From Minisyncoccota bacterium (GTDB lineage Bacteria > Patescibacteriota > Minisyncoccia > Phycocordibacterales > UBA9973): DNA of 64,000 nt. The stretch covers positions 13,681 through 77,680 of the forward strand of contig JAVHNX010000036.1 in NCBI GenBank assembly GCA_036169735.1. The letters run 5' to 3'. The stretch's first letter is position 1. Each line of letters begins with the position of its first letter. The translations under genes were made by a program, and so were the position numbers. Below the pieces are notes generated by a model. It searched no databases and was not told where the DNA came from. It saw nothing but the letters and a program-made list of their open reading frames with translations. Below, piece by piece: positions 1-45,748 of the stretch.

Positions 1-147
1 GGTTTTCTTTTTGTAAAAGCTCGTGGTAACCCTGGAGAAATTGAAGTAGCCAAAAAATCTCTACTTTATACAGTTATAGGTGCAGCAATTCTTTTAGGGG
101 CATGGGCAATTGCTCAGATTATAACGAATACAATACTGGCACTTTAA
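1..147 (+). CDS. VirB2/TrbC pilin-like small membrane protein, 5'-truncated at window edge (paralog 1 of 4)
   Basis: Frame 1 is open from the window edge to TAA at 145-147. The C-terminal hydrophobic helix ...AKKSLLYTVIGAAILLGAWAIAQIITNTILAL has the same architecture as the C-termini of the next three ORFs. Confidence 0.4.
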   Translation, partial: GFLFVKARGNPGEIEVAKKSLLYTVIGAAILLGAWAIAQIITNTILAL

Positions 148-194
148 TTTTTATAAGCTAATCTATTTATATCAACAGTATTTTATTAAACCAA

Positions 195-581
195 ATGAAA
201 AATTTTAAAAAACTTTCTTCAATAATTTTTGTCACTTCCTTTATTTTACCGATTGTTTCTTTTGCTCAAACCACAACTGTTGCCAGTTGTACCTTGGTAC
301 CAAATCCTAAATTTGGTGATTTACTAAATTTTGTTACTTGTAATATATCCAGATCAGTTATTCCTCTTGTGTTTGCTTTGGCTGTGGCTGCTTTCATTTG
401 GGGAGTAGTTCAGTATGTTATTTTGGGTGCTGAAGAAGAGTCAAAAAGAGCAAAAGGTCGACAGTTTATGATATGGGGTCTTATTGCTTTGGCCGTGATG
501 GTTTCGATATGGGGCCTTGTGGCTATCATTGGAAATACTTTCGGTATAGACAACGCTATTCCACAACTTCAGACCCATTAA
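195..581 (+). CDS. Small secreted two-helix membrane protein, TrbC/VirB2 pilin-like (paralog 2)
   Basis: Signal peptide MKNFKKLSSIIFVTSFILPIVSFA, then two hydrophobic helices separated by a short charged loop (GAEEESKRAKGRQ); conserved Cys; about 100-aa mature size, typical of T4SS pilin subunits. Confidence 0.45.
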   Translation: MKNFKKLSSIIFVTSFILPIVSFAQTTTVASCTLVPNPKFGDLLNFVTCNISRSVIPLVFALAVAAFIWGVVQYVILGAEEESKRAKGRQFMIWGLIALAVMVSIWGLVAIIGNTFGIDNAIPQLQTH

Positions 582-736
582 TATTTGCTTTTGAGGTTTT
601 TGTTGTTATAATTAAATTACCCTAATATTTAGGAAAGTTATAAAAGGTCGCTTTAAATTATCAATTATTATTAATTAAAAATTAAGTGTGTCGCGTCTTA
701 ATTGACGTTTACGCGACATGTTTTCGAAAAAACAAT

Positions 737-1099
737 ATGAAAAATAAATTAATTCCATTAGTCGCTTTTGGTTTAGTCTTAGCTCCTTTTGCTTTCGCTG
801 TAAATACAGTGGGTGGTATCATTATTACAATCGGAGGTCTTCTTAATACTGTAGTACCTATTCTTATTACTCTAGCCGTTATCTATTTCATCTGGGGAGT
901 TGTTTCTTATGTTCTTGCAAAAGAAGAAGAAGCTAAAACAGCCGGAAGAGATAAAATGATCTACGGTCTTATCGGTCTAGTAGTTATCGTTGGTATGTGG
1001 GGTCTAGTTGGTATTATTGCTAATACTTTCGGTATCGGTGTTGGTGGTGGCTCACAGGGCATTACTGCTCCTTGTATCCCAGGAACAATCGGTTGTTAA
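737..1099 (+). CDS. Small secreted two-helix membrane protein, TrbC/VirB2 pilin-like (paralog 3)
   Basis: Start trimmed from ORF-track 686 to the Met opening signal peptide MKNKLIPLVAFGLVLAPFAFA. Two TM helices with charged loop AKEEEAKTAGRDK. C-terminal motif WGLVGIIANTFGI parallels WGLVAIIGNTFGI of paralog 2. Confidence 0.45.
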   Translation: MKNKLIPLVAFGLVLAPFAFAVNTVGGIIITIGGLLNTVVPILITLAVIYFIWGVVSYVLAKEEEAKTAGRDKMIYGLIGLVVIVGMWGLVGIIANTFGIGVGGGSQGITAPCIPGTIGC

Positions 1100-1119
1100 T
1101 CTAATTACTTAAAAAATTA

Positions 1120-1488
1120 ATGAATTTTTTCTTTACAAATGTCGCTTATGCCGCTGGTGAGAGTCTGGATAAATTTATCCAGAACGTCAACAACCTGATT
1201 ATCAATCCGCTAATCGTTTTACTTTTTGCTTTAGCTTTAGCTTATTTTCTTTGGGGAGTATTTGTCTTTATTTCTAATCAAGACAATGAAGAAAAGAAAA
1301 CAACAGGGAAAAGTCACATGGTTTATGGGTTGATAGGGATTACGATTATGATGGGAGTCTGGACTATTCTTTCAATTGTTATGAATACTCTAAACATCTC
1401 CACAACAGAGATCAATCCTAGTACAGGTAAAGTTGATTTAGGTAATTACAATCCTCCGGCAGGGAGTGGTGAGTTGAAGATAAATTAA
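1120..1488 (+). CDS. Divergent pilin-like two-helix membrane protein (paralog 4)
   Basis: Same helix - charged loop (NQDNEEKKTTGKS) - helix layout, conserved Y/WGLIG motif, very short N-terminal leader, longer hydrophilic tail. Confidence 0.35.
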   Translation: MNFFFTNVAYAAGESLDKFIQNVNNLIINPLIVLLFALALAYFLWGVFVFISNQDNEEKKTTGKSHMVYGLIGITIMMGVWTILSIVMNTLNISTTEINPSTGKVDLGNYNPPAGSGELKIN

Positions 1489-1497
1489 ATTAAAATA

Positions 1498-1534
1498 AAA
1501 AAAGCCGTTCACAATTTGTGAACGGCTTTTTGTT
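1498..1534 (+). terminator. Rho-independent terminator after pilin-like gene array
   Basis: Hairpin agccgttcacaatttgtgaacggct followed by a T-run. Confidence 0.6.
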
Positions 1535-1561: not shown

Positions 1562-2179
1562 TCAATTTAATACTTCTACTCCATAATTACTTGGTTCACC
1601 TTGGCAGACTGAAAACCAGCCTGCAAGTTGGCGACCCATGTTTAGGACTTCACCTGGTTTTAATTCCCATGTAGTCCCTGATGGAGATTTTATAATTATT
1701 TTTCCACCCTTAGGGTAAAATGCAGTTTCACTTTTTAAATAAACTGAAATACATTTTACACTGGCAGAAAACTTATAAAATACTTTTTTTGCTTCTTGTT
1801 TTTCTATTGTTTGTATTGCTGGTGTACCATGACTGCTGTGCGCAAAACGGGGTATTGTGTAATTCAAACCAATCAATACAATAATAATCAAAACTGCGAA
1901 AAACAAAAAATCTTTAAAAAAGATTAATACAATTAAAACAATTGCATTGGTAACCCAAAAGAATAAAGGAAAACCATACCATGCGTGCCAAAGTAGAGGG
2001 CACTGCAATTGCATGTAGATTATTCCTAATATGTAGAATATTATAAACAGTCCATTTTTTTTGAACCATCCCAATTCTACTTTTACTTTTATCTTACCGC
2101 CTTTTTTAATTAACGAGATAACAAAAATTAATACAACAAAAGCTACTATGCCTAAGGCAATTTCTAAAATTATTTCCAT
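1562..2179 (-). CDS. Polytopic membrane protein, possible NfeD-like partner of the adjacent SPFH protein
   Basis: 205-aa ORF with several hydrophobic segments and a C-terminal soluble beta-rich segment (SPSGTTWELKPGEVLN). Start overlaps the upstream SPFH gene stop by 1 nt (ATGA). Ends with TGA. Confidence 0.3.
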   Translation of the reverse strand: MEIILEIALGIVAFVVLIFVISLIKKGGKIKVKVELGWFKKNGLFIIFYILGIIYMQLQCPLLWHAWYGFPLFFWVTNAIVLIVLIFFKDFLFFAVLIIIVLIGLNYTIPRFAHSSHGTPAIQTIEKQEAKKVFYKFSASVKCISVYLKSETAFYPKGGKIIIKSPSGTTWELKPGEVLNMGRQLAGWFSVCQGEPSNYGVEVLN

Positions 2180-3255
2180 TATTTTCCCTCCTTTTTAGTT
2201 TCATCACCATCAACATTGATGGTGGATATTACATTAGATCCAAGGACACGTATCTGTGTCTCTTTCACTTGTTCCAAATTCATAAACGGGATTATCCCAG
2301 GATTTTTCTTTGCAACTTTACTCATCTCATCAAAGCGGTGTGCTTCAGCTTCTGTCGTAAGTATTTGTGCATCTTTTGCAAACTTAGCGCTGTCAATCAA
2401 GGCCTTGCCTTCAGAATTGGTTTTAATTTCCAAAATCTTGGCTGCGGTCTCTGATCTCGTAATCAGAGCTTTTCCTTCGTTTTCCGCTATTAAATTTTCA
2501 GCAAGCGATTTATCTACTTCTTCATTTGCTGGACCTTTGCTTATGCCATAGTTTGCAAGTTTCATGCTATCAACCTCTATTCCTAGAGTTCTTGATGTGG
2601 TTTCATTAATGGATTCAGTAATTTGTCTGATAAAATCAGAATCTTTACTTGTTTTATCCGCTTTTTCAAACGCATCCCATTCTTTATTTCTCACAAAATT
2701 ATTAACAGCTGTTTCTATGTCAGCTGAAGCTTTGTAGATTGTGATTCCATCAGGTTGTGAGAGAAAGAGCAGTTTGGTAATATTCATTACCTTAAACCTA
2801 AACTTTAGATCTAAATCTATTTTAATTTCACCACCCAATAATTCAACTTCCTTTACTATGATTCTAAAGTCATAGAGATGCTTGAAAGATGTATGTTCTT
2901 CAAATTGTTCATCATTTTGATAAACTTTAAATTTCAAGATTTCATTAATTGGACTTAACCCCAAATAGGTCATACCAAGTTTTTCAAACAAATAACCTAA
3001 ATTTTGTGGTCTGCATATGAAGTTTCCTTCGTTGTCTTTGCATTCCTTCCAGTTTCCTTCTTTGTCATAGAAACCATTTTTGGAATTAAATAATAAGTTT
3101 ACAACGTTCTTTCCCTTTACAACACCTTTACCAGTTTCTTTTGTAAGTTCTGTAAAGTGAGTGTCATTTTTTCCCAATTGCTTTAAAAGCAAAGTAAAGC
3201 CAAAACCAATTAGCGACAATATCGCTAAGATGGCAAATGTAATTAGTGCTGTCAT
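2179..3255 (-). CDS. SPFH/band-7 (stomatin/prohibitin/flotillin-like) membrane protein
   Basis: N-terminal TM anchor (ALITFAILAILSLIGFGFTLLL). Region GIEVDSMKLANYGISKGP...AENEGKALITRSETAAKILEIKTNSEGKALIDSA resembles the SPFH-domain core with its A/E-rich helical tail. Confidence 0.5.
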   Translation of the reverse strand: MTALITFAILAILSLIGFGFTLLLKQLGKNDTHFTELTKETGKGVVKGKNVVNLLFNSKNGFYDKEGNWKECKDNEGNFICRPQNLGYLFEKLGMTYLGLSPINEILKFKVYQNDEQFEEHTSFKHLYDFRIIVKEVELLGGEIKIDLDLKFRFKVMNITKLLFLSQPDGITIYKASADIETAVNNFVRNKEWDAFEKADKTSKDSDFIRQITESINETTSRTLGIEVDSMKLANYGISKGPANEEVDKSLAENLIAENEGKALITRSETAAKILEIKTNSEGKALIDSAKFAKDAQILTTEAEAHRFDEMSKVAKKNPGIIPFMNLEQVKETQIRVLGSNVISTINVDGDETKKEGK

Positions 3256-3466: not shown

Positions 3467-4213
3467 TTAAGCGTGTTTTAAAGGAGTATGTTTTTTGTCT
3501 TCTTTAACAAAAGCTTTTCTGGCAAATATTACTATCAGTAGAACTAAGGTTAAAAGTAGAAGCCATCCGATTAAACTTGAAGGCATTAAACCGTTTGTTC
3601 CAAACAGTGCGTTGGCCATAAGACTACTACTAGAATCTGTTGATTTGGTTGTACTTTTAGCAACAGTTGTTTTCTTTACCACCTTTGCTGTTGTTACAGT
3701 CGTTGCAGTTGTTGTAGTTGTCGATTTTGCGACAGAAGCTTTGTTTAGTTGGAATATGGCGGAATTTGACATTCCACCTCCTGGTAGAGGATTAAAGACT
3801 GTTATTGTGTAAGCACCTAATCCAGACATATCTGATGGGGTAAGGGTTGTTGTAATTTTATTTGAGTTTACAAAAGTTGTTGCTCTTTCTTCACCGTTCC
3901 ATTTAGCAACTGATCCAAATGAAAAGTTGGTTCCTATGATTGTTACAACAGTAGCAGCTTTACTTGAAACTGCAGAATCAGGGCTGATTGAATTTATGGT
4001 TGGAACTAAATTGACTGTTGGCGTGGGTGTTGCTGTTGTGGGTGTATTAATATCACCTACATAGGAATATCCATTGTAGTAACTACCAGCTCCGCCGTCA
4101 TAAGAAAAGCCACCATAAGCATTAGCTTTTAAGGGTAAAACTAGGATACTGAAAACAAATATACCTAATACCCCTAAAGTCTTTATTATTAAGTTGTTAG
4201 TTGTTTTATTCAT
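3467..4213 (-). CDS. Cell-surface protein with IPT/TIG domain, Thr-rich linker and C-terminal TM anchor
   Basis: Signal peptide ...VLPLKANA. Segment PTINSISPDSAVSSKAATVVTIIGTNFSFGSVAKWNGEERATTFVNSNKITTTLTPS...YTITVFNPLPGGGMSNSAIFQ matches the IPT/TIG fold pattern. Poly-Thr stretch, then hydrophobic helix GWLLLLTLVLLIVIF and basic tail. Start trimmed to MNKTTNN. Confidence 0.5.
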   Translation of the reverse strand: MNKTTNNLIIKTLGVLGIFVFSILVLPLKANAYGGFSYDGGAGSYYNGYSYVGDINTPTTATPTPTVNLVPTINSISPDSAVSSKAATVVTIIGTNFSFGSVAKWNGEERATTFVNSNKITTTLTPSDMSGLGAYTITVFNPLPGGGMSNSAIFQLNKASVAKSTTTTTATTVTTAKVVKKTTVAKSTTKSTDSSSSLMANALFGTNGLMPSSLIGWLLLLTLVLLIVIFARKAFVKEDKKHTPLKHA

Positions 4214-4263
4214 ATAAGTCAAGTATACCATATATAAATCTAAAAGTCAAGCTTATTAAAGCT

Positions 4264-5207: not shown

Positions 5208-6704
5208 TTATTTTTGTGTTATTGAAAACGACTCAAGAATGTCTCCTGCTACTATCTCAATCTTTGATTCGATCATAGTACCAAATTCTGAACCTTCTTC
5301 TACTTTGTTTGTTTTTGATTTGAATTTCTCTAGGTTTACGATTCTACCTTTACCTATTTCAAACTCACGACGAATTATTTTAACTGTTTCACCAAGAGAG
5401 ATATTTCCTTCAGTAACTTTTCCTCCGACAACTTGGCGTTCCTTGGTACGGCTGAAAGCTTTGATTATCTTAGCTCGTCCGGTAACTTCGATTGTTTCTA
5501 CTCTAGGGCGTCTCTTTTCCATTTCTTCTGTCAACCATTCTGTCATTTTGTAAATGATATCGAAAAATAGAATTGGAATGTTTTGCTTTATAGCTAAGTC
5601 ATTGGCACCTCTGTCTGCTTTTACATTAAACCCGATTACAATGATTTCTGAACCCTGGGATGATTTAATATCGGACTCAGTAATAGGTCCGACACCTTTC
5701 TGGATTATTTTGAATTCTGCACCTTCACTTTGTATTTTTTTTATTTCTTTTTCGATTGCTTCAATAGATCCCATGACATCTGCACGCAAAACTATTGGAA
5801 TCATTTTTTTATCACTTATTTCTCTCTTTTCATTTTTGGTTATTTTTTTATTTAATATTTCTTTTGCGTATTCTTCAGCATCACCTTTCTTTTCGAAAGC
5901 TTTAAACATTGCTCCAACTTTTGGAACTTTACTAAAGCCAACTAGTCGAACAGGGGATGAAAATGTGGCATCTTTAACCATTTTGCCTAAAAAGTTTTCC
6001 ATGATGCGAGTAGAACATAAAGCATCTTCCACTGCTACAGTCATACCATTTTTAAGTTTTCCATTTTTAATAATTAAAGTAGCTTGGATTCCTCTTTTTG
6101 GATCTAAGTTTGCTTCGATAACATATCCCGTTGCTCCTTCCTCCGTATTTGCTGTAAATTCTTCCATCTCAGCTATAAGAAGAATTAGAGTTAAAAGATT
6201 ATCTACGCCAGTACCAACTTTTGCAGAAATCTCAGCGACAGGTGTCTTGCCTCCGTATCCTTCAACATATATTTCATTTTCAGCAAGTTCCATTTTTGTC
6301 TTTTCGATATTAGCAGCTGGTCTATCTATTTTGTTGATAGCAACAATAAATGGAATCTTACTTTCAAGAATTGTTTTGTAAGCTTCTATTGTTTGTGGTT
6401 TTACTCCATCTTCGGCTGAAACAACTAAGATAGCAATATCTGCTGCTTCCGCTCCACGTTCACGCATTTTTGAGAAAGCTTCGTGTCCTGGAGTATCTAA
6501 GAAAGTAATTTTTTTATCTTTACCATGTTCGTCTTTATGAACAACTTCATACGCAGAAATATGCTGAGTAATTCCTCCAGCTTCACGGTCAACAATATTT
6601 GTCTTTCTGATATAGTCCAGCAACGTAGATTTACCATGGTCGATATGACCCATGACTACTACTATCGGTGGACGATCTATTATGTTTTTTATTTTGTTTT
6701 TCAT
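5208..6704 (-). CDS. infB: Translation initiation factor IF-2 (short form lacking N-terminal extension)
   Basis: G-domain motifs [22 protein letters not shown]-terminal beta-barrel domains. Followed by rbfA. Confidence 0.9.
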
Positions 6705-7165
6705 TATTGTTTAACTTCAGCTTTTTTTAGTATTTCTTTTTCTTCGTTTGTTAATTCGTATTCTGATTTTCCTTTTTTAATAGGCTTAGCAAAAACACTC
6801 ATTCTCTCACGGGAATATAAACTTGAAAGGACTACACCGTCACCGTCCTCGTTTAATAGTCCTATAGCAAAACTTTGGTTGCTGCCTTGATCAGGGAAAG
6901 GGTTGAAACGAACAGTCTCGAGTCCACGAATACTTTTTCTTAATTTTGCATTTATCTCAATAATTTCTTTTTCGTGTTCCTCTTTTATTTTTATTAAGTT
7001 AGCAAGGTCACTTTCTAGTGAAATAATGGTATCCTCTAAATCTTTTGCTTTTTTACCAACAAAAAATCTTTTTAATCTTTTCTCTGTTTTCATAACCCAA
7101 ATAACGCCAACAATGACGTAAATTCCAGTTAAAACAAAAAAAGCGATCTCGAGCTTTATATTCAT
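6704..7165 (-). CDS. DUF4446-like membrane/coiled-coil protein
   Basis: N-terminal TM helix, coiled-coil segment, then RFNPFPDQGSNQSFAIGLLNEDGDGVVLSSLYSRE motif reminiscent of the DUF4446 family. Overlaps infB start by 1 nt. Confidence 0.35.
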   Translation of the reverse strand: MNIKLEIAFFVLTGIYVIVGVIWVMKTEKRLKRFFVGKKAKDLEDTIISLESDLANLIKIKEEHEKEIIEINAKLRKSIRGLETVRFNPFPDQGSNQSFAIGLLNEDGDGVVLSSLYSRERMSVFAKPIKKGKSEYELTNEEKEILKKAEVKQ

Positions 7166-7189
7166 GCCTTTTCAATATATACTATTTTT

Positions 7190-8530
7190 ATGGTTAAATC
7201 AATCAAAAAATCAAAGAATATATATATGGATTATGCCAGCGGTGCTTCAGCTAATCCTGCCAATCCTGGAGCAATTCACGATTTTGGTGTGAAAGCGAAA
7301 AAACAACTGAATGAAGCAAGGGAAGAAATTGCCAAGATTTTAGGTGCACACTCAAATGAAGTGGTTTTTACCTCAGGGGCAACAGAGAGTAATAATTTGG
7401 CAATTTTGGGAATACTAAGAAAATATTTTGAAACTTTTAGCCCCTATGTCAGACATAGGGGAGTTTCCCCTATGTCTGACATAGGGGCTGTTCCACATAT
7501 TGTTACCACAAACATAGAACATGCATCTGTGCTGGAGGTGTGTAAATATTTAGAAAAAACAAAACAAATAGAAGTGACTTATGTTCCAGTAGAAGAAAAT
7601 GGAATAGTAGATCCGGAGAAAATAAAAAAATCACTTAGACCAAATACGATTTTTGTTTCTGTTATGTATGCGAATAATGAGATTGGAAGTATCCAGCCAA
7701 TAAGAGAAATTGCAAAAGAAATTAGACATTATCGAAAACAAGAAGCGGAAAGAATAAATGAAAAAAGGTCGGACATTAAGAATTTAGAAAGGTCCGACCT
7801 TGGTATTTTTCCAGTTTTTCATACCGATGCGACTCAAGCAATAAATTATTTACCGATCAATGTTGAAAAACTTGGCATTGATTTGTTATCTTTTAATGGA
7901 TCAAAAATTTATGGGCCGAGTGGTGTTGGAGCTTTGTATGTAAAAAGACAGACACCTATCACTAGTATTATATTTGGCGGTGATCAAGAATTTGGATTAA
8001 GACCAGGGACAGAAAATATTGTCGGTATTGTTGGATTAGCAAAAGCTTTAAAAGTTGTAGAACAAATAAAAGATAAAGAAACAAAACGTTTAATTAAACT
8101 AAGAGATTATTTTATTAAAAAAATGTCAAGGTTAAGCCTTGACACTACACATTCCCCGAAACCAGGTTTAGGGGAACTTCCCCTAAACCTGGTTTCGGGG
8201 AAAGTTATACTAAATGGTGACCTAGAAAATAGACTACCAAACAATATAAATATCACTATTCCAAAAATTCCAAGTGATCTTTTGGTAATAGAACTTTCTG
8301 CTCATGGAATTATGGCTTCTGTCAAAAGTGCTTGTAAATCTGGTGACGAAAAGGCATCCCATGTAATACAAGCTATTCGAGAAGCACAACTAGGGGAGTT
8401 ATTGGTTAATAAAGAAATTGACGGATCAATCAGATTTTCTCTTGGTAGACAAACAACCAAAGATGATATTGACTACACACTAAAGGCTTTGTCTCAAATT
8501 TTGACCAAACTAAAAAGGTGGTATAATTAG
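7190..8530 (+). CDS. Cysteine desulfurase, NifS/IscS family (class V aminotransferase), carrying four in-frame palindromic insertions
   Basis: N-terminus IYMDYASGASANP...FTSGATESNNLAILG matches the IscS start, and ...SFNGSKIYGPSGVGALYV matches the PLP-lysine region. At 446 aa it is longer than typical because of the inserted peptides SPYVRHRGVSPMSDIGA, RSDIKNLERSDLG, MSRLSLD and HSPKPGLGELPLNLVSG. Confidence 0.8.
   Translation: MVKSIKKSKNIYMDYASGASANPANPGAIHDFGVKAKKQLNEAREEIAKILGAHSNEVVFTSGATESNNLAILGILRKYFETFSPYVRHRGVSPMSDIGAVPHIVTTNIEHASVLEVCKYLEKTKQIEVTYVPVEENGIVDPEKIKKSLRPNTIFVSVMYANNEIGSIQPIREIAKEIRHYRKQEAERINEKRSDIKNLERSDLGIFPVFHTDATQAINYLPINVEKLGIDLLSFNGSKIYGPSGVGALYVKRQTPITSIIFGGDQEFGLRPGTENIVGIVGLAKALKVVEQIKDKETKRLIKLRDYFIKKMSRLSLDTTHSPKPGLGELPLNLVSGKVILNGDLENRLPNNINITIPKIPSDLLVIELSAHGIMASVKSACKSGDEKASHVIQAIREAQLGELLVNKEIDGSIRFSLGRQTTKDDIDYTLKALSQILTKLKRWYN
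7439..7490. repeat. GC-rich composite palindrome inserted in-frame in nifS
   Basis: agcccctatgtcagacatagggg-ag-ttt-cccctatgtctgacataggggct: a 52-nt palindrome made of two CCCC...GGGG half-palindromes; encodes SPYVRHRGVSPMSDIGA. Confidence 0.7.
7765..7801. repeat. Hairpin element aaggtcggac...gtccgacctt inserted in-frame in nifS
   Basis: 10-bp arms aaggtcggac/gtccgacctt with a 17-nt loop. The same arms form the stem of the rsmI terminator at 58619-58672. Confidence 0.6.
8123..8145. repeat. ATG..CAT hairpin element (family 1) inserted in-frame in nifS
   Basis: atgtcaagg-ttaag-ccttgaca. Near-identical copies at 40142-40164, 57884-57906 and the variant at 49828-49850. Encodes MSRLSLD. Confidence 0.7.
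8154..8200. repeat. GC-rich composite palindrome inserted in-frame in nifS
   Basis: ccccgaaaccaggtttagggg-aactt-cccctaaacctggtttcgggg: a perfect 47-nt palindrome; encodes PKPGLGELPLNLVSG. Confidence 0.7.
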
Positions 8531-20619: not shown

Positions 20620-21258
20620 TTAATCATCCAGTTCTTTATTTCCCTCTATTTTATCTTTAGGATTTTTATTTGATTCTGGTTTATCTTCTATTATTTTTTT
20701 AGTTTCATTTTCTATTTCTGGTTTATCTAACTTTAGAAGGACGCTGTTTATTTTTTGGGTTGTTGATTCAGTGTTGATATTTACGGAATTGTTTATTTTT
20801 GAAATGGCGTCAAGATTATTTTTCAGCTCGTCTCCCATTTGAGCTTTTTTTGTTTTATCCAACTTTCCAGTCAAAGATAGGGCTTGTATTTCAGCCAGAC
20901 GCCTGTCTACTATTTTTTTATGCCAGGCGATTTTGGCTTCAGGAGAAAACTGGAGAGCGGATATTATTTTTTCATTTATATTTATCTTAATAGGATGGAG
21001 TATATCTCCAGGTAGAGATTTCTCAGCGGCAAAAGCGAGTGCACCTCCTCCAAAAATAACAATCAGGCAGGCGGCAATCAACGATTTTCTAAGAGTCAAA
21101 AAATGTGACTTGAACAAATAAGGTGAAGGTGTGCTTGCCATGGGTGAAGAAAAAATAAAAGAAGATAAATTTGAACGGATAAAAATCATTTCCCTTTCGG
21201 TAATTGTTATTTTTTTTAACTTATTTATAAGTTGTTTAATCTGTTTGTCCATTTTCAT
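20620..21258 (-). CDS. Putative anti-sigma factor (single-pass membrane protein)
   Basis: Directly downstream of and overlapping the ECF sigma gene; central TM helix LIAACLIVIFGGGALAFAA; no recognizable enzymatic motifs. Confidence 0.35.
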   Translation of the reverse strand: MKMDKQIKQLINKLKKITITEREMIFIRSNLSSFIFSSPMASTPSPYLFKSHFLTLRKSLIAACLIVIFGGGALAFAAEKSLPGDILHPIKININEKIISALQFSPEAKIAWHKKIVDRRLAEIQALSLTGKLDKTKKAQMGDELKNNLDAISKINNSVNINTESTTQKINSVLLKLDKPEIENETKKIIEDKPESNKNPKDKIEGNKELDD

Positions 21259-21760
21259 TTAAAATAATTTTTAATTTTTCCAATCCTCTGTGAATTCTTA
21301 CGGAAACATTGTTTTCAGTCTCGTTTGTTATTTTTGCTATTTCTTTAATTGATAAATCTTCTACATATCGTAAAGTTATGATTTCGCTGTATTTTTCTTC
21401 AAGTTTTTTTATAGTTTCGAGTGCCTTCTCTCCTTCAAAGATCATTTCTATTTCTTCCTTCAAATCTTTTTCGTTAGCAAAGTCAAAACCGTCATCAATC
21501 ATTTTGTCTAATGAAAAGTCTTTTTTCTTTCGTCTGTCATCTATCACCGTATTTCTTGCGACTTGATACAAAAAAGCTTTTACATGCTCGATTTTATTTT
21601 CACCGGAAGACATATATGTCCAGACTTTTATAAAAGTATTTTGCGCTATATCCTTTGCTTTTTCTCGATCACTCGTTTGGAAATAGCAATAGCGGAAGAT
21701 TGCGTCTGCATACTCATCGTATATTTTCAAGAATTTTTCTTCTGATTTTTTGATGTCCAT
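21236..21760 (-). CDS. ECF-type RNA polymerase sigma factor (sigma-70 family group 4)
   Basis: Region 2 (IAQNTFIKVWTYM...FLYQVARNTVID) and region 4 (ITLRYVEDLSIKEIAKITNETENNVSVRIHRGLEKLK). Confidence 0.75.
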   Translation of the reverse strand: MDIKKSEEKFLKIYDEYADAIFRYCYFQTSDREKAKDIAQNTFIKVWTYMSSGENKIEHVKAFLYQVARNTVIDDRRKKKDFSLDKMIDDGFDFANEKDLKEEIEMIFEGEKALETIKKLEEKYSEIITLRYVEDLSIKEIAKITNETENNVSVRIHRGLEKLKIILNENGQTD

Positions 21761-42436: not shown

Positions 42437-42546
42437 TATAAATATTGCGAAGGACAGTCTTCCGTAGAAAGTAAAAATCCTCTCCGACTTTGGTTGTAGG
42501 GAATTTTTACTTTCACCTATTTTTAATTTTTGCTATAATTCATTTT

Positions 42547-44661
42547 ATGGAGAATCCTAAAATACCAATCAATAAAGATATGACATATATAGGTCAGACG
42601 ACCTTTAGAGATAAGAATCAGATCTTTGGTATGAAGCGCAGAGATAGACGTCAGCACGTATATGTTCTTGGAAAATCTGGTACTGGTAAATCTGTGCTAC
42701 TTTCCAATATGATTGTTCAGAACATTCAAAACGGAGATGGTGTTTGCGTTGTTGATCCTCACGGAGAATTAGTTGAAAGTGTTTTACAATCTATTCCAAC
42801 TGACCGTATCAAAGATGTTATTTATTTCAACCCAGCTGATACGGATTACCATATAGGCTTTAATGTTATTGAAATTCTAGATCCAAAATATAAACATTTG
42901 GTGGCTTCAGGCTTGATGGGAATTTTCACTAAGATCTGGGCAAATGCTTGGTCTGCTCGTATGGAATATATTTTAAATAATACAATCTTGGCATTGTTGG
43001 ATACTCCAGGTTCGACTCTTCTTGGTATTCCAAGAATGTTAGTGGACAAAGAATATCGCAAAAAAATAATTGAAAATTTAAAGGATCCAGTCATTAAAGC
43101 TTTTTGGATACATGAGTACGAAGCTTGGAATGAAAAATTTAGAAATGAAGCTATTGCTCCGATTCAGAACAAAGTTGGACAATTTCTTTCTTCTTCTATC
43201 ATTAGAAATGTTGTAGGTCAATCAATGAGTACCATTAATGTTTTTGATATCATGAATGAAGGTAAAATTTTCTTGGTGAACGTTTCCAAGGGACGTATTG
43301 GTGAAGATAATTCCGCATTGCTTGGAGGTATGATTATTACCAAGATCCAGCTCGCTGCAATGGAGCGTGTGCGTATTCCTGAAGATGAAAGAAAAGACTT
43401 TTATTTATATGTCGACGAGTTCCAGAACTTCGTGACTGATTCTTTTGCCAGTATTTTGTCTGAAGCTCGAAAATACCGATTGAATCTAACTGTTGCTCAC
43501 CAGTACACAGCTCAGCTCGTGATTGATGGGTCTTCGGCAGTGCGTGACGCTGTCTTCGGCAACGTCGGTACGATGATTGTATTTCGAGTGGGTGCTGATG
43601 ATGCACTCTTTTTGGAAAAAGAATTTGAACCAGAATTCACTCCACAGGATATCGTGAACTTGCCGAACTATCGTATTTATTTACGTTTGATGATTGATGG
43701 TATTGGTTCACGTCCATTTTCTGCAAAGACTTTGCCTCCAATAGCAAAAAATCCAGATACTCAAGTTGAAGATAAAGTTATCAGTATGTCTCGCGCACTT
43801 TACTGTAAAAAGAAAGAAGTAGTTGAACAAGAAATAAATGATTGGAGTGGTATGTCTATCGGGAATATTGTCAGTACCAGTCCTATTAGTAATGTTGAAA
43901 AATTCCCAGCTGTTTGTTCTAATTGTAAAAAGGAAACTTCAGTACCATTTAAGCCTGAACCAGGACGACCGATTTATTGTAAGGATTGTATTGCAAAAAT
44001 AAAATCTGGAGAAATAAAGCCACTTCCACAACCAGCTCCTGTTAAAGAACCAATAAATGAAGTTAAAGTAGAACCAGTAAAGTCTGGAATTCTTTCAACA
44101 CTTACAAAAGTTTTAAAACCCATTATTCCGATTATTCCTATTCGTGCTCCATCAGAAATTAAGCGAAATGATTCTGTAGAATCAAAAGCTTTTACTAAAG
44201 CTCCGACTGTTCCTGTTGTTTCAGTGCCTCCAGTTCAAAAAGAAGCCCCAAGGCCATTTATTACTCGTCCTATACCAGCCCCAGTAAAACCTACAGAAAA
44301 TACAGCTTTGAGAGATATTTTAAATAAGACTTTGTCTGAGAGTAAAGTTCTTGAGAAACTTATTGTAGTACCAGAGGTAAAAGAAATTAAAATTCCCGTA
44401 CCACCTCCTGCAATGTCATTGAGTGATTTAAAAAGAACAAATCCTATATCAACAAATTCTCTAAATAATAATGATAGATCTGCAAGTGCTGAAGATATGA
44501 ATAAACTTAAAAACTTTATTTTTGAAAAAGTACCCACAGTATCACAAGAAAAAAAAGTTGAGCCGGTGAGCGAGGAAGTAAAAAAAGAAATTCCAGTCCC
44601 AACACCTCCAAAAAATATAAAAGAAGTGCCTGAAGATGTGTTAAAGAAGATTTTAGAATAG
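42547..44661 (+). CDS. FtsK/HerA-superfamily P-loop ATPase related to T4SS coupling proteins (TraG/VirD4/TraD-like), with C-terminal zinc ribbon and Pro-rich tail
   Basis: Walker A VLGKSGTGKS, VVDPHGE, Walker B LYVDEFQNF, ARKYRLNLTVAHQYTAQL (T4CP/HerA arginine-finger region). CSNCKK...YCKDC zinc ribbon, then PxP-rich low-complexity tail. No N-terminal TM. Start set at the second Met (MENPK) after the -10 TATAAT at 42533. Confidence 0.5.
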   Translation: MENPKIPINKDMTYIGQTTFRDKNQIFGMKRRDRRQHVYVLGKSGTGKSVLLSNMIVQNIQNGDGVCVVDPHGELVESVLQSIPTDRIKDVIYFNPADTDYHIGFNVIEILDPKYKHLVASGLMGIFTKIWANAWSARMEYILNNTILALLDTPGSTLLGIPRMLVDKEYRKKIIENLKDPVIKAFWIHEYEAWNEKFRNEAIAPIQNKVGQFLSSSIIRNVVGQSMSTINVFDIMNEGKIFLVNVSKGRIGEDNSALLGGMIITKIQLAAMERVRIPEDERKDFYLYVDEFQNFVTDSFASILSEARKYRLNLTVAHQYTAQLVIDGSSAVRDAVFGNVGTMIVFRVGADDALFLEKEFEPEFTPQDIVNLPNYRIYLRLMIDGIGSRPFSAKTLPPIAKNPDTQVEDKVISMSRALYCKKKEVVEQEINDWSGMSIGNIVSTSPISNVEKFPAVCSNCKKETSVPFKPEPGRPIYCKDCIAKIKSGEIKPLPQPAPVKEPINEVKVEPVKSGILSTLTKVLKPIIPIIPIRAPSEIKRNDSVESKAFTKAPTVPVVSVPPVQKEAPRPFITRPIPAPVKPTENTALRDILNKTLSESKVLEKLIVVPEVKEIKIPVPPPAMSLSDLKRTNPISTNSLNNNDRSASAEDMNKLKNFIFEKVPTVSQEKKVEPVSEEVKKEIPVPTPPKNIKEVPEDVLKKILE

Positions 44662-44761
44662 TTATACATATACATGGGAGTTTCCTATGTAGTTGCAATC
44701 TTCACTAGAAATAAAAAATTATTATCTATTTTAAAACATAAAAATGTTATAATATTTCGGT

Positions 44762-45748
44762 ATGGTATTAAAAAAGACACTAAAAAAGAAAGATGTTGTT
44801 ATTTACCAAGCCAAAAATGGAGCTATTGAACTTCGTGGTGATTTTTCTCGTGAAACTGTGTGGGCTACTCAGGCGCAGATTGCTGATGTTTTTCAGACTG
44901 AAAGATCTGTTGTGACTAAGCATATAAGAAATATTCTTAATGATAAAGAACTTAATGCTAATTCAGTATGTGCAAAATTTGCACATACTGCAGATGATGG
45001 AAAGGTTTATCAAGTACAATTTTATAATCTTGATGTTATTTTAGCTGTTGGATATAGAACAAGTTCAAAGAAGGCTATTGAATTTCGTCAGTGGGCAACA
45101 AAAACGTTACGAAGCTATATCGTAGATGGTTTTGCAATAAATAAAAACCGAATTGCTAAAAATTATGAACATTTTTTAAATGTTGTTGATGATATTAAAA
45201 AACTTTTGCCAGCTGAATCTACGGTTAATCCAAAAGATGCTATAGAACTCATATCACTTTTTGCTGATACTTGGCTTTCTTTGGATGCTTATGATCGAGA
45301 AATTTTATCAAAAGGAAAGCTTACAAAAAAGAAAGTTAACATTACTTCCGAAAAAATTTCACGAGATTTATTCGAGCTTAGAAAAATTCTTATTGAAAAA
45401 GGTGAAGCGACAGATATTTTTGGTCACGAAAGAAATGTTGGTTTTGTGTCGGGAATAGTTGATAATGTAATGCAGTCATTCGGAGGCAATGAACTTTATC
45501 CAACAGTTGAAGAAAAGGCTGCACATCTTTTGTATTTTATGGTAAAGAACCATCCATTTACTGATGGTAATAAACGTTCAGGAGCTTTTGCTTTTGTTTG
45601 GTTATTGAAACAGGCAAATATTCTTGATATTCAAAAATTAAGCCCTTCAGCCCTGACAGCATTAACTGTGCTTGTGGCAGAAAGTGACCCAAATCATAAA
45701 GATAAGATTATTAAACTCATTTTGAATCTTATTTCAAAGAATAATTAA
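44762..45748 (+). CDS. RhuM-family N-terminal domain fused to Fic/Doc domain
   Basis: N-terminus VVIYQAKNGAIELRGDFSRETVWATQAQIADVFQTERSVVTKHIRNI matches the RhuM family. C-terminus has the Fic motif HPFTDGNKRSG. Confidence 0.7.
   Translation: MVLKKTLKKKDVVIYQAKNGAIELRGDFSRETVWATQAQIADVFQTERSVVTKHIRNILNDKELNANSVCAKFAHTADDGKVYQVQFYNLDVILAVGYRTSSKKAIEFRQWATKTLRSYIVDGFAINKNRIAKNYEHFLNVVDDIKKLLPAESTVNPKDAIELISLFADTWLSLDAYDREILSKGKLTKKKVNITSEKISRDLFELRKILIEKGEATDIFGHERNVGFVSGIVDNVMQSFGGNELYPTVEEKAAHLLYFMVKNHPFTDGNKRSGAFAFVWLLKQANILDIQKLSPSALTALTVLVAESDPNHKDKIIKLILNLISKNN

What the first reader, a model, noticed from the sequence alone, without database searches (positions are those of the whole stretch)
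1..1534. Tandem array of four paralogous VirB2/TrbC-pilin-like genes
Four consecutive same-strand genes (one truncated by the window edge) encode about 100-aa proteins with a signal peptide and two hydrophobic helices joined by a short charged loop. This is the architecture of conjugative/T4SS pilin subunits. The paralogs differ markedly in the N-terminal half and the C-terminal tail while keeping the WGL(V/I)xIIxNT(F/L) motif. That pattern suggests diversification of a surface-exposed structural subunit, possibly for epibiont-host contact in a CPR-like organism. No VirB4 or VirB6 gene is adjacent in this window. The only T4SS-like ATPase candidate is 41 kb away (42547-44661).
Basis: partly seen in the sequence, partly recalled or inferred. 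Interest (0 to 1): 0.55.

Follow-up and report, generated by a model that had tools for sequence, protein, structure and literature searches.

The report
Patescibacterial T4SS pilin gene array
The region holds four of five tandem genes for small VirB2-like "type IV secretion pilin" membrane proteins in an ultrasmall (CPR/Patescibacteria) bacterium; such arrays are already published, so it is a correct but largely ordinary find.

Summary
Window 1-1488 (+ strand) holds one 5'-truncated and three complete genes for roughly 120-aa helix-loop-helix membrane proteins. All match Pfam PF18895 (T4SS_pilin). A near-identical contig shows a fifth pilin gene just upstream of the window.

The organism is a Paceibacteria/"Nomurabacteria"-like patescibacterium. 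Tandem arrays of 2-11 divergent VirB2-like pilins in Patescibacteria were described in 2023 and 2025, and one such array is essential in Ca. Southlakia. This is therefore a new member of a known kind.

What I add:
- The five paralogs are ancient, order-conserved classes (p1-p5), found in nearly all 79 related genomes examined.
- Between two strains, p2-p5 differ mostly by synonymous changes.
- Variation sits in the predicted extracellular termini, and above all in p1's N-terminal extension.
- p4 has its own conserved promoter and leader motif.
- No VirB4 or VirB6 gene lies within the 64-kb window or the 9 kb seen upstream of it. None recurs within 10 kb of the array in relatives.

Similarity to canonical TrbC/VirB2 is only sub-threshold here. 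Structure searches were uninformative. Pilus formation remains inferred.

The parts
1..147 (+). 3' end (last 48 codons plus stop) of pilin gene p2. The full gene encodes 124 aa on contig L001 at 5903-6277.
   Evidence: The translation is identical to the C-terminus of the L001 124-aa ORF. The fragment scores 26.3 bits against PF18895. The full-length protein scores 32.3 bits against PF18895 and 22.3 bits against PF04956 TrbC. Its best class HMM is p2, at 80.8 bits.
195..581 (+). Pilin gene p3 (128 aa). It has a Sec-type leader (MKNFKK...SFA|QTT), a Cys pair in the N-terminal mature segment, and a helix-loop-helix core at residues 50-117.
   Evidence: PF18895 at 30.2 bits. Hydrophobic segments at 6-25, 50-79 and 89-116. 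Class HMM p3 scores 173 bits. It is orthologous to the second domain of the fused double pilins found in relatives.
585..612 (+). Promoter-like site ahead of p4: TTGCTT (585-590), a 16-nt spacer, and an extended -10 TGTTATAAT (604-612).
   Evidence: Read from the sequence. The same TGnTATAAT element is seen upstream of the p4 gene in the related genomes listed. The p3-p4 gap is long (median 127 nt), against 9-14 nt for the other gaps. The generic promoter scan did not list this site, because its -35 matches only 3 of 6 positions.
620..736 (+). Conserved 5' leader of p4. It holds a small hairpin (620-633), an invariant GGTCG inside AAGGTCGC (644-651), ATTATTA repeats (664-673) and a GC hairpin (689-696 paired with 711-718).
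   Evidence: A[AT]GGTCG is present in the p3-p4 gap of 36 related loci. GGTCG is near-invariant in the leader alignment. ATTATTA[GA] is 52-fold enriched in this gap, at 9.2 against 0.18 per kb, and is present in 71 of 78 loci. No Rfam family matches. Its function is unknown.
737..1099 (+). Pilin gene p4 (120 aa). It has a Sec-type leader (MKNK...AFA|VNT), a core at residues 31-99, and a C-terminal tail with the conserved P-C-x-P-x4-C motif. It is a candidate major subunit.
   Evidence: PF18895 at 31.7 bits. NF045849 at 30.9 bits. AF2 gives helices 25-60 and 64-98. 215 homologs at E<=1e-3; all 120 listed carry PF18895. Nearly invariant residues are listed. The gene has its own conserved promoter and leader.
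1120..1488 (+). Pilin gene p5 (122 aa). It has an atypical conserved mini-leader (MNFFFTNVAYA|AG), a core at residues 22-91 and a 31-residue variable C-terminal tail.
   Evidence: PF18895 at 33.2 bits and PF04956 at 17.4 bits. NF045849 at 32.2 bits. Class HMM p5 scores 165 bits, and the leader M(D/N)(L/F)F.T..AYA is conserved in most of the p5 orthologs listed.
1499..1531 (.). Bidirectional intrinsic terminator that closes the array and also the convergent gene 1562-2179 on the minus strand.
   Evidence: It has a 15-bp stem, AAAAAGCCGTTCACA / TGTGAACGGCTTTTT, with an A-run upstream and a T-run downstream. Predicted energy is -22.4 kcal/mol.

Best explanation
Window 1-1534 is the downstream four-fifths of a five-gene, same-strand array of Patescibacteria-type T4SS pilins (Pfam PF18895, the monoderm/CPR branch of the VirB2/TrbC pilin superfamily). 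It sits on the chromosome of a Paceibacteria ('Nomurabacteria'-like, Minisyncoccia) bacterium.

**Shown**
- Each gene encodes a leader plus a two-helix membrane hairpin with a short charged loop.
- The five paralogs are distinct, ancient orthologous classes kept in the order p1-p2-p3-p4-p5 across the clade.
- Between strains, p2-p5 differ mostly by synonymous changes.
- Sequence variation is confined to the two termini.
- The array ends in a strong terminator, and p4 has its own conserved promoter-like site and leader.

**Inferred**
- The proteins are inserted by Sec/YidC with both termini outside. Natural fusions of two or three pilin domains without an internal signal peptide fit this topology.
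- They are trimmed at A-x-A sites.
- A VirB4-driven, MPF-FATA-like T4SS encoded elsewhere then extracts them from the membrane.
- They assemble into a heteromeric pilus-like or conduit structure that mediates contact or exchange with a host cell.
- In that structure p4 would be the abundant subunit.
- p1 would be the subunit that displays a strain-variable extracellular domain.
- Because the classes are conserved and non-interchangeable, they most likely have non-redundant structural roles rather than being alternative antigenic variants.
For: **Family**
- PF18895 hits for all copies.
- 71 of 71 array members from relatives hit PF18895, and 25 of 71 also hit PF04956 TrbC/VirB2, with a best E-value of 1.7e-8.
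- p1 and p2 of this genome score 24.0 and 22.3 bits against TrbC. A p2 ortholog scores 34.8 bits, above the 27.9-bit cut-off.
- Sub-threshold hits to the Mycoplasma ICE pilin-like family NF045849.

**Fold and topology**
- Two hydrophobic helices.
- Fused two- or three-domain pilin genes were found among the relatives: 41 proteins in all.

**Organism**
- 98% identity to a Minisyncoccia MAG; relatives are Nomurabacteria or Paceibacterota.

**Conserved classes and order**
-.

**Selection**
- dN/dS of 0-0.13 for p2-p5 against the L007 strain.
- Core identity among orthologs is 55-67% with 0-1% gaps. Termini are 11-39% identical.
- The p1 N-terminal extension is replaced between strains. In p1 orthologs it carries fn3, TSP1 or InlB-repeat domains, one member each.

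**Regulation**
- p4 promoter and leader.

**Literature**
- 441 such arrays of 2-11 genes in 383 Patescibacteria assemblies (PMC12102498).
- A pilin series inside the T4SS cluster of Ca. Southlakia epibionticum is essential for epibiotic growth (PMC10633639; PMC12857230).
Against: - **No machinery nearby.** No VirB4, VirB6 or VirB3 gene was found in the window ORFs I scanned or in the 9 kb seen upstream. No recurrent large unassigned ORF lies within 10 kb of the array in 79 relatives. Linkage to a T4SS is therefore by family name and literature only, and I could not show that this genome has a VirB4.
- **Weak tie to canonical VirB2.** Profile-profile comparison with Agrobacterium-type VirB2 is not significant (probability below 1%). 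Sequence search of the PDB finds no pilin.
- **No pilus observed.** No T4SS pilus has been visualised in any patescibacterium, and the reviews call it a possibility.
- **Thin selection data.** The dN/dS estimate rests on very few substitutions.
Confidence: 0.7

Rival explanations
1. The proteins are T4SS-associated but do not form a filament. They would stay in the cytoplasmic membrane as small two-helix subunits of the translocation channel, as pilin-like proteins of wall-less or Gram-positive conjugation systems may do. The five classes would be fixed stoichiometric parts of that channel.
For: - The best NCBIfam match is a Mycoplasma ICE 'pilin-like conjugal transfer protein'.
- Patescibacterial T4SS derive from the monoderm MPF-FATA class, whose members generally lack pili.
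- Conserved class order and low dN/dS fit fixed structural parts.
- Fused multi-domain versions are easier to reconcile with a membrane complex than with a helical homopolymer.
Against: - The variable, Cys-containing extracellular termini suggest exposure and interaction outside the cell. So do the N-terminal adhesin-type domains seen on p1 orthologs.
- Partial similarity to TrbC/VirB2, which are true pilins.
Confidence: 0.18
2. The paralogs are interchangeable variants of one major pilin. They would be kept as a repertoire for antigenic or host-range variation, as proposed for Bartonella and Anaplasma VirB2 paralogs and suggested for Patescibacteria arrays.
For: - In-genome paralogs are only 18-56% identical in the core.
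- The published interpretation raises this possibility.
- p1's exposed extension does differ completely between two strains.
Against: - Each paralog has positional orthologs in nearly all 79 related genomes, and each scores far better with its own class HMM than with the others.
- p2-p5 are nearly identical between strains and differ mostly by synonymous changes.
- Genes are packed 9-20 nt apart in one orientation, as in an operon, with only one internal promoter-like site.
- No silent-cassette or recombination features were seen.
Confidence: 0.08
3. The array works independently of any T4SS, for example as a small-membrane-protein assembly acting with the solute-binding protein encoded immediately upstream, in uptake or envelope organisation. 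On this view the 'pilin' name is only a family label.
For: - No T4SS machinery gene is linked in this clade.
- An SBP_bac_1 gene sits directly upstream, 5 nt from p1, in 72 of 79 related loci.
Against: - The whole neighbourhood (rpsA, gyrA, methyltransferase, infB) is syntenic across the same genomes. SBP adjacency may therefore be plain inherited synteny.
- In other Patescibacteria classes pilin genes lie near virB4 in 1135 of 1948 assemblies, and they are essential together with the T4SS genes in Southlakia.
Confidence: 0.04

Closest known systems
VirB2-like pilin arrays of Patescibacteria. This includes the Pfam PF18895 arrays catalogued by Quinonero-Coronel et al. 2025 (PMC12102498), the essential pilin series in the T4SS cluster SEML1_0006-0019 of Ca. 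Southlakia epibionticum ML1 (Wang et al. 2023, PMC10633639), and the 'Sec secreted array' of TM7x.
   Same: - Same Pfam family and same host phylum.
- Tandem same-strand copies, five here against a published range of 2-11.
- Low identity between copies: 18-56% in the core here, against a published mean of 25% and maximum of 54%.
- Leader plus two-helix architecture.
   Different: - Here the array is not in or near a virB4 cluster. It sits between gyrA-methyltransferase-SBP and a variable region.
[quoted passage not shown]
- In this clade the copies are order-conserved orthologous classes that change little between strains. That argues for non-redundant roles rather than the host-range variation suggested in the paper.
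Canonical conjugative pilins TrbC/VirB2 (Pfam PF04956; A. tumefaciens VirB2, RP4 TrbC)
   Same: - Size of about 100-125 aa, with a leader peptide and two hydrophobic helices joined by a short polar loop.
- Weak profile similarity: p1 24.0, p2 22.3 and p5 17.4 bits. A p2 ortholog reaches 34.8 bits.
   Different: - All copies in this genome fall below the family cut-off of 27.9 bits.
- hhalign against an Agrobacterium-type VirB2 profile is not significant.
- The host is a monoderm.
- No linked VirB3-B11 genes.
- There are five paralogs rather than one.
- The loop is longer and highly charged (EEE.K..GR).
- Cyclisation and lipid-bound pilus assembly are unknown here.
Mbov_0395 family pilin-like conjugal transfer protein of Mycoplasma ICEs (NCBIfam NF045849)
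   Same: It is a small two-helix protein of a monoderm (MPF-FATA-type) T4SS. It gives the best NCBIfam hit for all four window genes (E from 6e-8 to 6e-4).
   Different: Scores of 19-32 bits are below the 40-bit equivalog cut-off. The Mycoplasma gene is single-copy on a mobile element, not a chromosomal five-gene array.
Tandem VirB2 paralogs of intracellular pathogens (Bartonella Trw TrwL copies, Anaplasma phagocytophilum VirB2 paralogs)
   Same: Tandem amplification and divergence of the pilin gene of a T4SS used for host interaction rather than conjugation.
   Different: Those arrays are in diderm alphaproteobacteria, sit next to their T4SS genes, and are thought to be variant surface subunits. 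Here the copies are ancient, fixed classes. This comparison rests on the discussion in PMC12102498 and on general knowledge; it was not tested here.

Membership tests
Pfam PF18895 T4SS_pilin (Patescibacteria/monoderm VirB2-like pilins) | Profile match at or above the curated cut-off (26.6 bits) | tested here: met
   p3 scores 30.2, p4 31.7 and p5 33.2 bits. The p2 fragment scores 26.3 bits, but full-length p2 scores 32.3 and p1 scores 36.1 bits. All 71 sampled array members from relatives hit the model.
Pfam PF18895 T4SS_pilin (Patescibacteria/monoderm VirB2-like pilins) | Small protein with a leader and two hydrophobic helices joined by a short loop | tested here: met
   The AF2 model has helices 25-60 and 64-98 at pLDDT 74. 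p5 has only an 11-residue atypical leader.
Pfam PF18895 T4SS_pilin (Patescibacteria/monoderm VirB2-like pilins) | Occurs as a tandem array of divergent copies in a Patescibacteria genome, as described in PMC12102498 | tested here: met
   Five same-strand copies. Core identity between copies is 18-56%. The host is a Minisyncoccia/Nomurabacteria-like organism.
Pfam PF18895 T4SS_pilin (Patescibacteria/monoderm VirB2-like pilins) | Encoded near virB4 and other T4SS components (true for 1135 of 1948 assemblies, so typical rather than strictly defining) | tested here: not met
   No VirB4, VirB6 or VirB3 domain was found in any scanned ORF of the window or in the 9 kb seen upstream; about 30 mid-size window ORFs were not scanned. 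No recurrent unassigned large ORF lies within 10 kb in 79 relatives. Whether virB4 exists elsewhere in this genome could not be checked.
Pfam PF04956 TrbC/VirB2 (canonical conjugative pilins) | Profile match at or above the cut-off (27.9 bits) | tested here: not met
   p1 scores 24.0, p2 22.3 and p5 17.4 bits. p3 and p4 give no hit. Orthologs in relatives do reach it: 25 of 71 members hit at E<=0.01, the best at E=1.7e-8, and L066 p2 scores 34.8 bits. This indicates superfamily-level relatedness only.
Pfam PF04956 TrbC/VirB2 (canonical conjugative pilins) | Detectable homology to bona fide VirB2 by profile-profile comparison | tested here: inconclusive
   hhalign of A3 or A7 against a 26-sequence VirB2 alignment gives probability 0.4-0.9% and E of 0.06-0.17. 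The A7 alignment does place helix 1, loop and helix 2 in register. Both profiles are shallow (Neff about 3-4).
Pfam PF04956 TrbC/VirB2 (canonical conjugative pilins) | Structural match to solved conjugative pilin subunits | tested here: inconclusive
Pfam PF04956 TrbC/VirB2 (canonical conjugative pilins) | Polymerises with phospholipid into an extracellular pilus, after leader cleavage or cyclisation | not testable with these tools
   This needs microscopy and biochemistry. A-x-A cleavage sites are only predicted from the sequence.
NCBIfam NF045849 Mbov_0395 pilin-like conjugal transfer protein | Score at or above the equivalog cut-off (40 bits) | tested here: not met
   Scores are 24.2, 19.4, 30.9 and 32.2 bits. 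The window genes are related but not members.
Type IV pilus (T4P) pilins | Class III signal peptide with the prepilin-peptidase site (G|F/M-T-L-x-E) and a single N-terminal hydrophobic helix followed by a globular domain | tested here: not met
   The sequences show Sec-type leaders ending in FAQ, AFA or AYA. They have no G-F-T-L-I-E motif, carry two hydrophobic helices and lack a globular domain. No T4P Pfam family was hit.
   The only other Pfam or NCBIfam hits are sub-threshold chance-level matches to miscellaneous membrane families.

The most novel reading that the evidence does not exclude
In the Nomurabacteria-like clade, the five fixed pilin classes build one heteromeric extracellular structure whose genes are physically unlinked from the T4SS locus. 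In this reading:
- p4 is a separately promoted major subunit, controlled by a conserved, so far undescribed leader element (GGTCG plus ATTATTAG repeats).
- p1 is a pilin that carries a strain-variable adhesin-like N-terminal domain and determines host specificity.
- p2, p3 and p5 are adaptor subunits.
- The co-transcribed solute-binding protein is possibly a functional partner.

This would be the first multi-subunit 'T4SS pilus' architecture in a monoderm.
Probability: 0.2. Interest if true: 0.65.

Novelty: new member of a known kind. Interest (0 to 1): 0.3.

Why it matters
Patescibacteria are a large share of bacterial diversity, and how they attach to and feed on host cells is largely unknown. 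Their T4SS and its pilin series are among the few systems shown to be essential for epibiotic growth, in one Saccharibacterium. The role of the system is described as completely unknown, and a pilus on a monoderm T4SS would be unprecedented.

This locus adds no new kind of system. The comparative result does sharpen the hypothesis to test:
- five ancient classes in fixed order that change little between strains;
- variable exposed termini;
- a strain-variable domain on p1;
- natural pilin-pilin fusions;
- a dedicated promoter and leader for p4.

Together these point to a heteromeric assembly with division of labour rather than a repertoire of interchangeable variants. They also nominate p1 as a candidate determinant of host range.

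Tried and rejected
1. **Sequence search of solved structures.** The p4-type profile and p5 alone found no pilin. The only hit was a chance match to a designed protein at E=0.24.
3. **hhalign against an Agrobacterium-type VirB2 alignment.** The alignment was built from database hits to a recalled VirB2 sequence, which proved 98% identical to a real entry. The comparison was not significant.
4. **First structure job.** I re-ran it without that row.
5. **Looking for VirB4.**
   - I scanned 30 window ORFs with Pfam: those nearest the array, those at 12.4-22.7 kb, the largest remaining ones, and those around the VirD4-like gene. About 30 mid-size ORFs between 24.8-38 kb and 48.8-63.6 kb were not scanned.
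   - I scanned the 9 kb seen upstream via L007.
   - I clustered all ORFs of at least 380 aa in 79 related loci.
   - I tried to walk further upstream through the exact SBP protein. Only the same Logan contigs, which break inside gyrA, were returned.
   - No VirB4 was found, and its presence in the genome remains unknown.
6. **Rfam on the p3-p4 leader, at the gathering threshold and at E<=10.** Nothing credible. I did not build a covariance model, because the alignment shows a conserved linear motif with variable inserted hairpins rather than a shared structure.
7. **Replication origin.** The cumulative GC-skew minimum at about 6-8 kb made me consider an origin there. The skew tracks gene strand over a short stretch and no dnaA is present, so I made no claim.
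8. **SBP-pilin adjacency as evidence of functional coupling.** I considered it and downgraded it, because the whole neighbourhood is syntenic in the same genomes.
Full report
**1. The observation**

The ORF listing and the raw sequence confirm four consecutive + strand reading frames:
- 1-147, which is open at the window edge and ends with a stop;
- 195-581 (128 aa);
- 686/737-1099 (120 aa from the ATG at 737);
- 1120-1488 (122 aa).

Each has two long hydrophobic stretches separated by a charged loop of about 10-13 residues. All four match Pfam PF18895 'T4SS_pilin', at 26.3, 30.2, 31.7 and 33.2 bits against a cut-off of 26.6. All four also give sub-threshold hits to NCBIfam NF045849, the Mycoplasma ICE 'pilin-like conjugal transfer protein'. 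Class-specific HMMs find no further member anywhere in the 64-kb window.

**2. The full locus**

The exact 128-aa protein occurs on 14 short-read assembly contigs. One of them, L001, overlaps the window for 4303 nt with 4 mismatches and extends 6.1 kb upstream. It shows two things. The truncated gene is a 124-aa pilin (p2). A fifth pilin, p1 (205 aa from the ATG at L001 5266), precedes it and carries a Cys/Pro/Thr-rich extension of about 100 residues.

Upstream lie an SBP_bac_1 solute-binding protein (428 aa, 5 nt from p1), a SAM methyltransferase that overlaps the SBP start, and gyrA. A GTDB genome contig of the same species is L007, a Minisyncoccia MAG with p4 98% identical. It adds an MBL-fold gene and rpsA further upstream.

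Downstream, a strong bidirectional terminator at 1499-1531 closes the array. It is followed on the minus strand by three genes with no Pfam match, a tRNA cluster and infB.

The window ORFs I scanned elsewhere are housekeeping: clpB, a P-type ATPase, znuABC, typA, alaS and grpE-dnaK-dnaJ. I did not scan about 30 mid-size ORFs at 24.8-38 kb and 48.8-63.6 kb. The only T4SS-related gene found is the VirD4/TrwB-like ATPase at about 42547-44661. It carries a C-terminal treble-clef zinc finger and has no obvious N-terminal membrane anchor when read from its first ATG. No VirB4, VirB6 or VirB3 gene is seen in the scanned ORFs.

**3. What the genes are**

Homologs of p4 number 215 at E<=1e-3. All 120 listed carry PF18895. 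Those that have names are called 'pilin' from Candidatus Paceibacterota or Nomurabacteria, or hypothetical protein.

I sampled 70 array members from related genomes and scanned them together with the window's p5. All 71 hit PF18895 and 25 also hit the canonical TrbC/VirB2 model PF04956, with a best E-value of 1.7e-8. In this genome p1, p2 and p5 reach 24.0, 22.3 and 17.4 bits against TrbC, below the 27.9-bit cut-off. One p2 ortholog reaches 34.8 bits. The family is therefore a divergent branch of the VirB2/TrbC superfamily, and p2 is the most canonical-looking class.

More direct tests were uninformative:
- hhalign against a 26-sequence Agrobacterium-type VirB2 profile is not significant, although the helices align in register.
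- PDB sequence searches find nothing.

That is not met: there is profile similarity and there is no competing family.

**4. What is already known**

Wang et al. [quoted passage not shown] Southlakia epibionticum. They noted that these are essential and that Gram-positive T4SS normally lack a pilus.

Quinonero-Coronel et al. 2025 (PMC12102498) searched 3,035 Patescibacteria genomes with PF18895 and PF04956. They found 441 arrays of 2-11 pilin genes in 383 assemblies, with mean identity 25% and maximum 54%. Pilin genes lay near virB4 in 1135 of 1948 assemblies. They suggested the variability might aid adaptation to different host strains. They also found VirD4-like genes in nearly all genomes, rarely near virB4.

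A 2025 review calls a T4SS pilus in these monoderms an 'intriguing possibility'. A 2024 perspective calls the role of the T4SS in Saccharibacteria 'completely unknown'.

The present locus is therefore a new member of a described kind.

**5. What the comparison adds**

I retrieved 80 genome loci with a relative of p4 and scanned them with a pilin HMM.

- **Order is conserved.** Nearly every locus has 4-6 same-strand pilin genes. Assigning each to the closest paralog of this species gives the order p1-p2-(p4-like+)p3-p4-p5 almost everywhere.
- **Classes are distinct.** Each window gene scores far higher with its own class HMM: p2 80.8, p3 173, p4 134 and p5 165 bits. The duplications therefore predate this clade, whose orthologs are about 50-60% identical.
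- **Little change between strains.** Against the L007 strain, p2-p5 show 0-3 non-synonymous and 1-12 synonymous differences, giving dN/dS 0-0.13. That is similar to infB and the SBP.
- **Variation is at the termini.** Among orthologs the helix-loop-helix core is 55-67% identical with 0-1% gaps. The mature N-terminal segments and C-terminal tails are 11-39% identical and carry indels.
- **p1 is the exception.** Its N-terminal extension is entirely different between the two strains, while its core is nearly identical. Individual p1-class orthologs (135-497 aa) carry fn3, TSP1 or InlB-repeat domains there.
- **Natural fusions exist.** Among the relatives, 41 proteins fuse two pilin domains into one protein, and one fuses three. 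There is no second signal peptide. This is what an N-out/C-out topology allows.
- **p5 has a distinctive leader.** It is a conserved 11-12 residue leader, M(D/N)(L/F)F.T..AYA, without basic residues.

**6. Regulation**

Genes are 9-20 nt apart except before p4, where the gap has a median of 127 nt across genomes. In the window this gap holds:
- TTGCTT, a 16-nt spacer, and TGTTATAAT at 585-612;
- a small hairpin at 620-633;
- an invariant GGTCG inside AAGGTCGC at 644-651;
- ATTATTA repeats at 664-673;
- a GC hairpin at 689-718.

The extended -10 element and the AAGGTCG motif recur in the related loci listed. ATTATTA[GA] is 52-fold enriched in this gap. AAGGTCGC with its 5' context occurs once in the window at zero mismatches. 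No Rfam family matches. I read this as a dedicated promoter plus leader for p4 (and p5), which suggests p4 is the abundant subunit. That reading is an inference.

**7. Mechanism**

Shown:
- family membership;
- architecture;
- conserved classes and order;
- few non-synonymous changes between strains;
- variation at the termini;
- a terminator, and an internal promoter-like site;
- no VirB4 found within the 9 kb seen upstream, among the scanned ORFs of the 64-kb window, or within 10 kb of the array in 79 relatives.

Inferred:
- Membrane insertion with both termini outside, followed by cleavage at A-x-A sites.
- Extraction and assembly by a VirB4-type T4SS encoded elsewhere. The literature places that system near dnaA in Paceibacteria.
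- A heteromeric pilus-like or conduit structure for host contact.
- In that structure p1 displays a variable domain and p4 forms the bulk.

Rivals:
- a purely membrane-embedded channel role;
- a repertoire of interchangeable variants, disfavoured;
- a T4SS-independent role with the neighbouring SBP, weakened because the entire neighbourhood is syntenic.

**8. Verdict**

- there are five genes, not four;
- p5 lacks a classical signal peptide;
- the motif is looser than stated;
- the divergence is ancient rather than ongoing.

The system is of a published kind, so novelty is low. The order-conserved classes, the fusions, the variable p1 domain and the p4 leader are modest new details. They turn 'variable pilin array' into a testable model of a heteromeric assembly.

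Noticed in passing
L001 5266-5883 (just upstream of window position 1); L007 8436-9062: This is the fifth pilin gene, p1. Its N-terminal extension of about 70-100 residues, rich in Cys, Pro and Thr, is completely different between two strains of the same species (about 96% nt identity). The pilin core is nearly identical. Individual p1 orthologs in other genomes carry fn3, TSP1 or InlB-repeat domains at this position.
   Followed up: partly
Related loci, e.g. L017 9087-9836, L032 7992-8708, L073 8994-9905: At the p3 position, many related genomes encode one protein with two pilin domains (41 such proteins in all), and one has three. There is no internal signal peptide. These are natural pilin-pilin fusions, and this genome has only the second half (p3).
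   Followed up: partly
window 585-736: There is a conserved extended -10 promoter and a conserved leader ahead of p4, with an invariant GGTCG and ATTATTAG repeats. The repeat motif is 52-fold enriched in this intergenic gap across relatives, and no Rfam family matches. It may be an undescribed cis-regulatory element.
   Followed up: partly
window 1120-1152: p5 and most of its listed orthologs begin with a conserved mini-leader, M(D/N)(L/F)F.T..AYA. It lacks any basic residue, so it is not a classical Sec signal. This suggests a different insertion or processing route.
   Followed up: partly
window 42490-45748: A VirD4/TrwB-like ATPase with a C-terminal treble-clef zinc finger sits between dnaK and dnaJ. 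It has no evident N-terminal membrane anchor. A RhuM/Fic-domain protein follows it, so the pair looks like an insertion into the grpE-dnaK-dnaJ cluster.
   Followed up: partly
window 1562-3255 (minus strand): Two genes (205 and 358 aa, both with N-terminal membrane segments) have no Pfam match. Homologs appear in only 5 and 3 of 79 related loci, so this is a variable spot right after the conserved array.
   Followed up: partly
L001 794-3285 versus L007: The window's strain carries three extra genes (67, 504 and 252 aa) between gyrA and the methyltransferase. The L007 strain lacks them. All Logan contigs of this strain that reach upstream break inside gyrA.
   Followed up: no
window 3467-4231 (minus strand): This is a 254-aa protein with a signal peptide, a Thr-rich linker and a C-terminal membrane anchor, so it looks cell-surface. 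It has no Pfam hit but is conserved next to the array in 57 of 79 related loci.
   Followed up: no
L001 3363-5260; L007 6611-8430: A SAM-dependent methyltransferase and a membrane-anchored SBP_bac_1 solute-binding protein are packed directly upstream of p1, with a 4-nt overlap and a 5-nt gap. No ABC permease or ATPase gene is nearby. The SBP is conserved at this position in 72 of 79 loci.
   Followed up: partly
window about 6000-8000: The cumulative GC skew has its minimum here, and gene orientation switches at 7165/7190. No dnaA is present, so this is probably a local strand effect rather than an origin.
   Followed up: no
window 20620-21760 (minus strand): An ECF-type sigma factor is followed by a DUF5667 protein, which may be its anti-sigma partner. 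I did not examine any link to the p4 leader motif.
   Followed up: no
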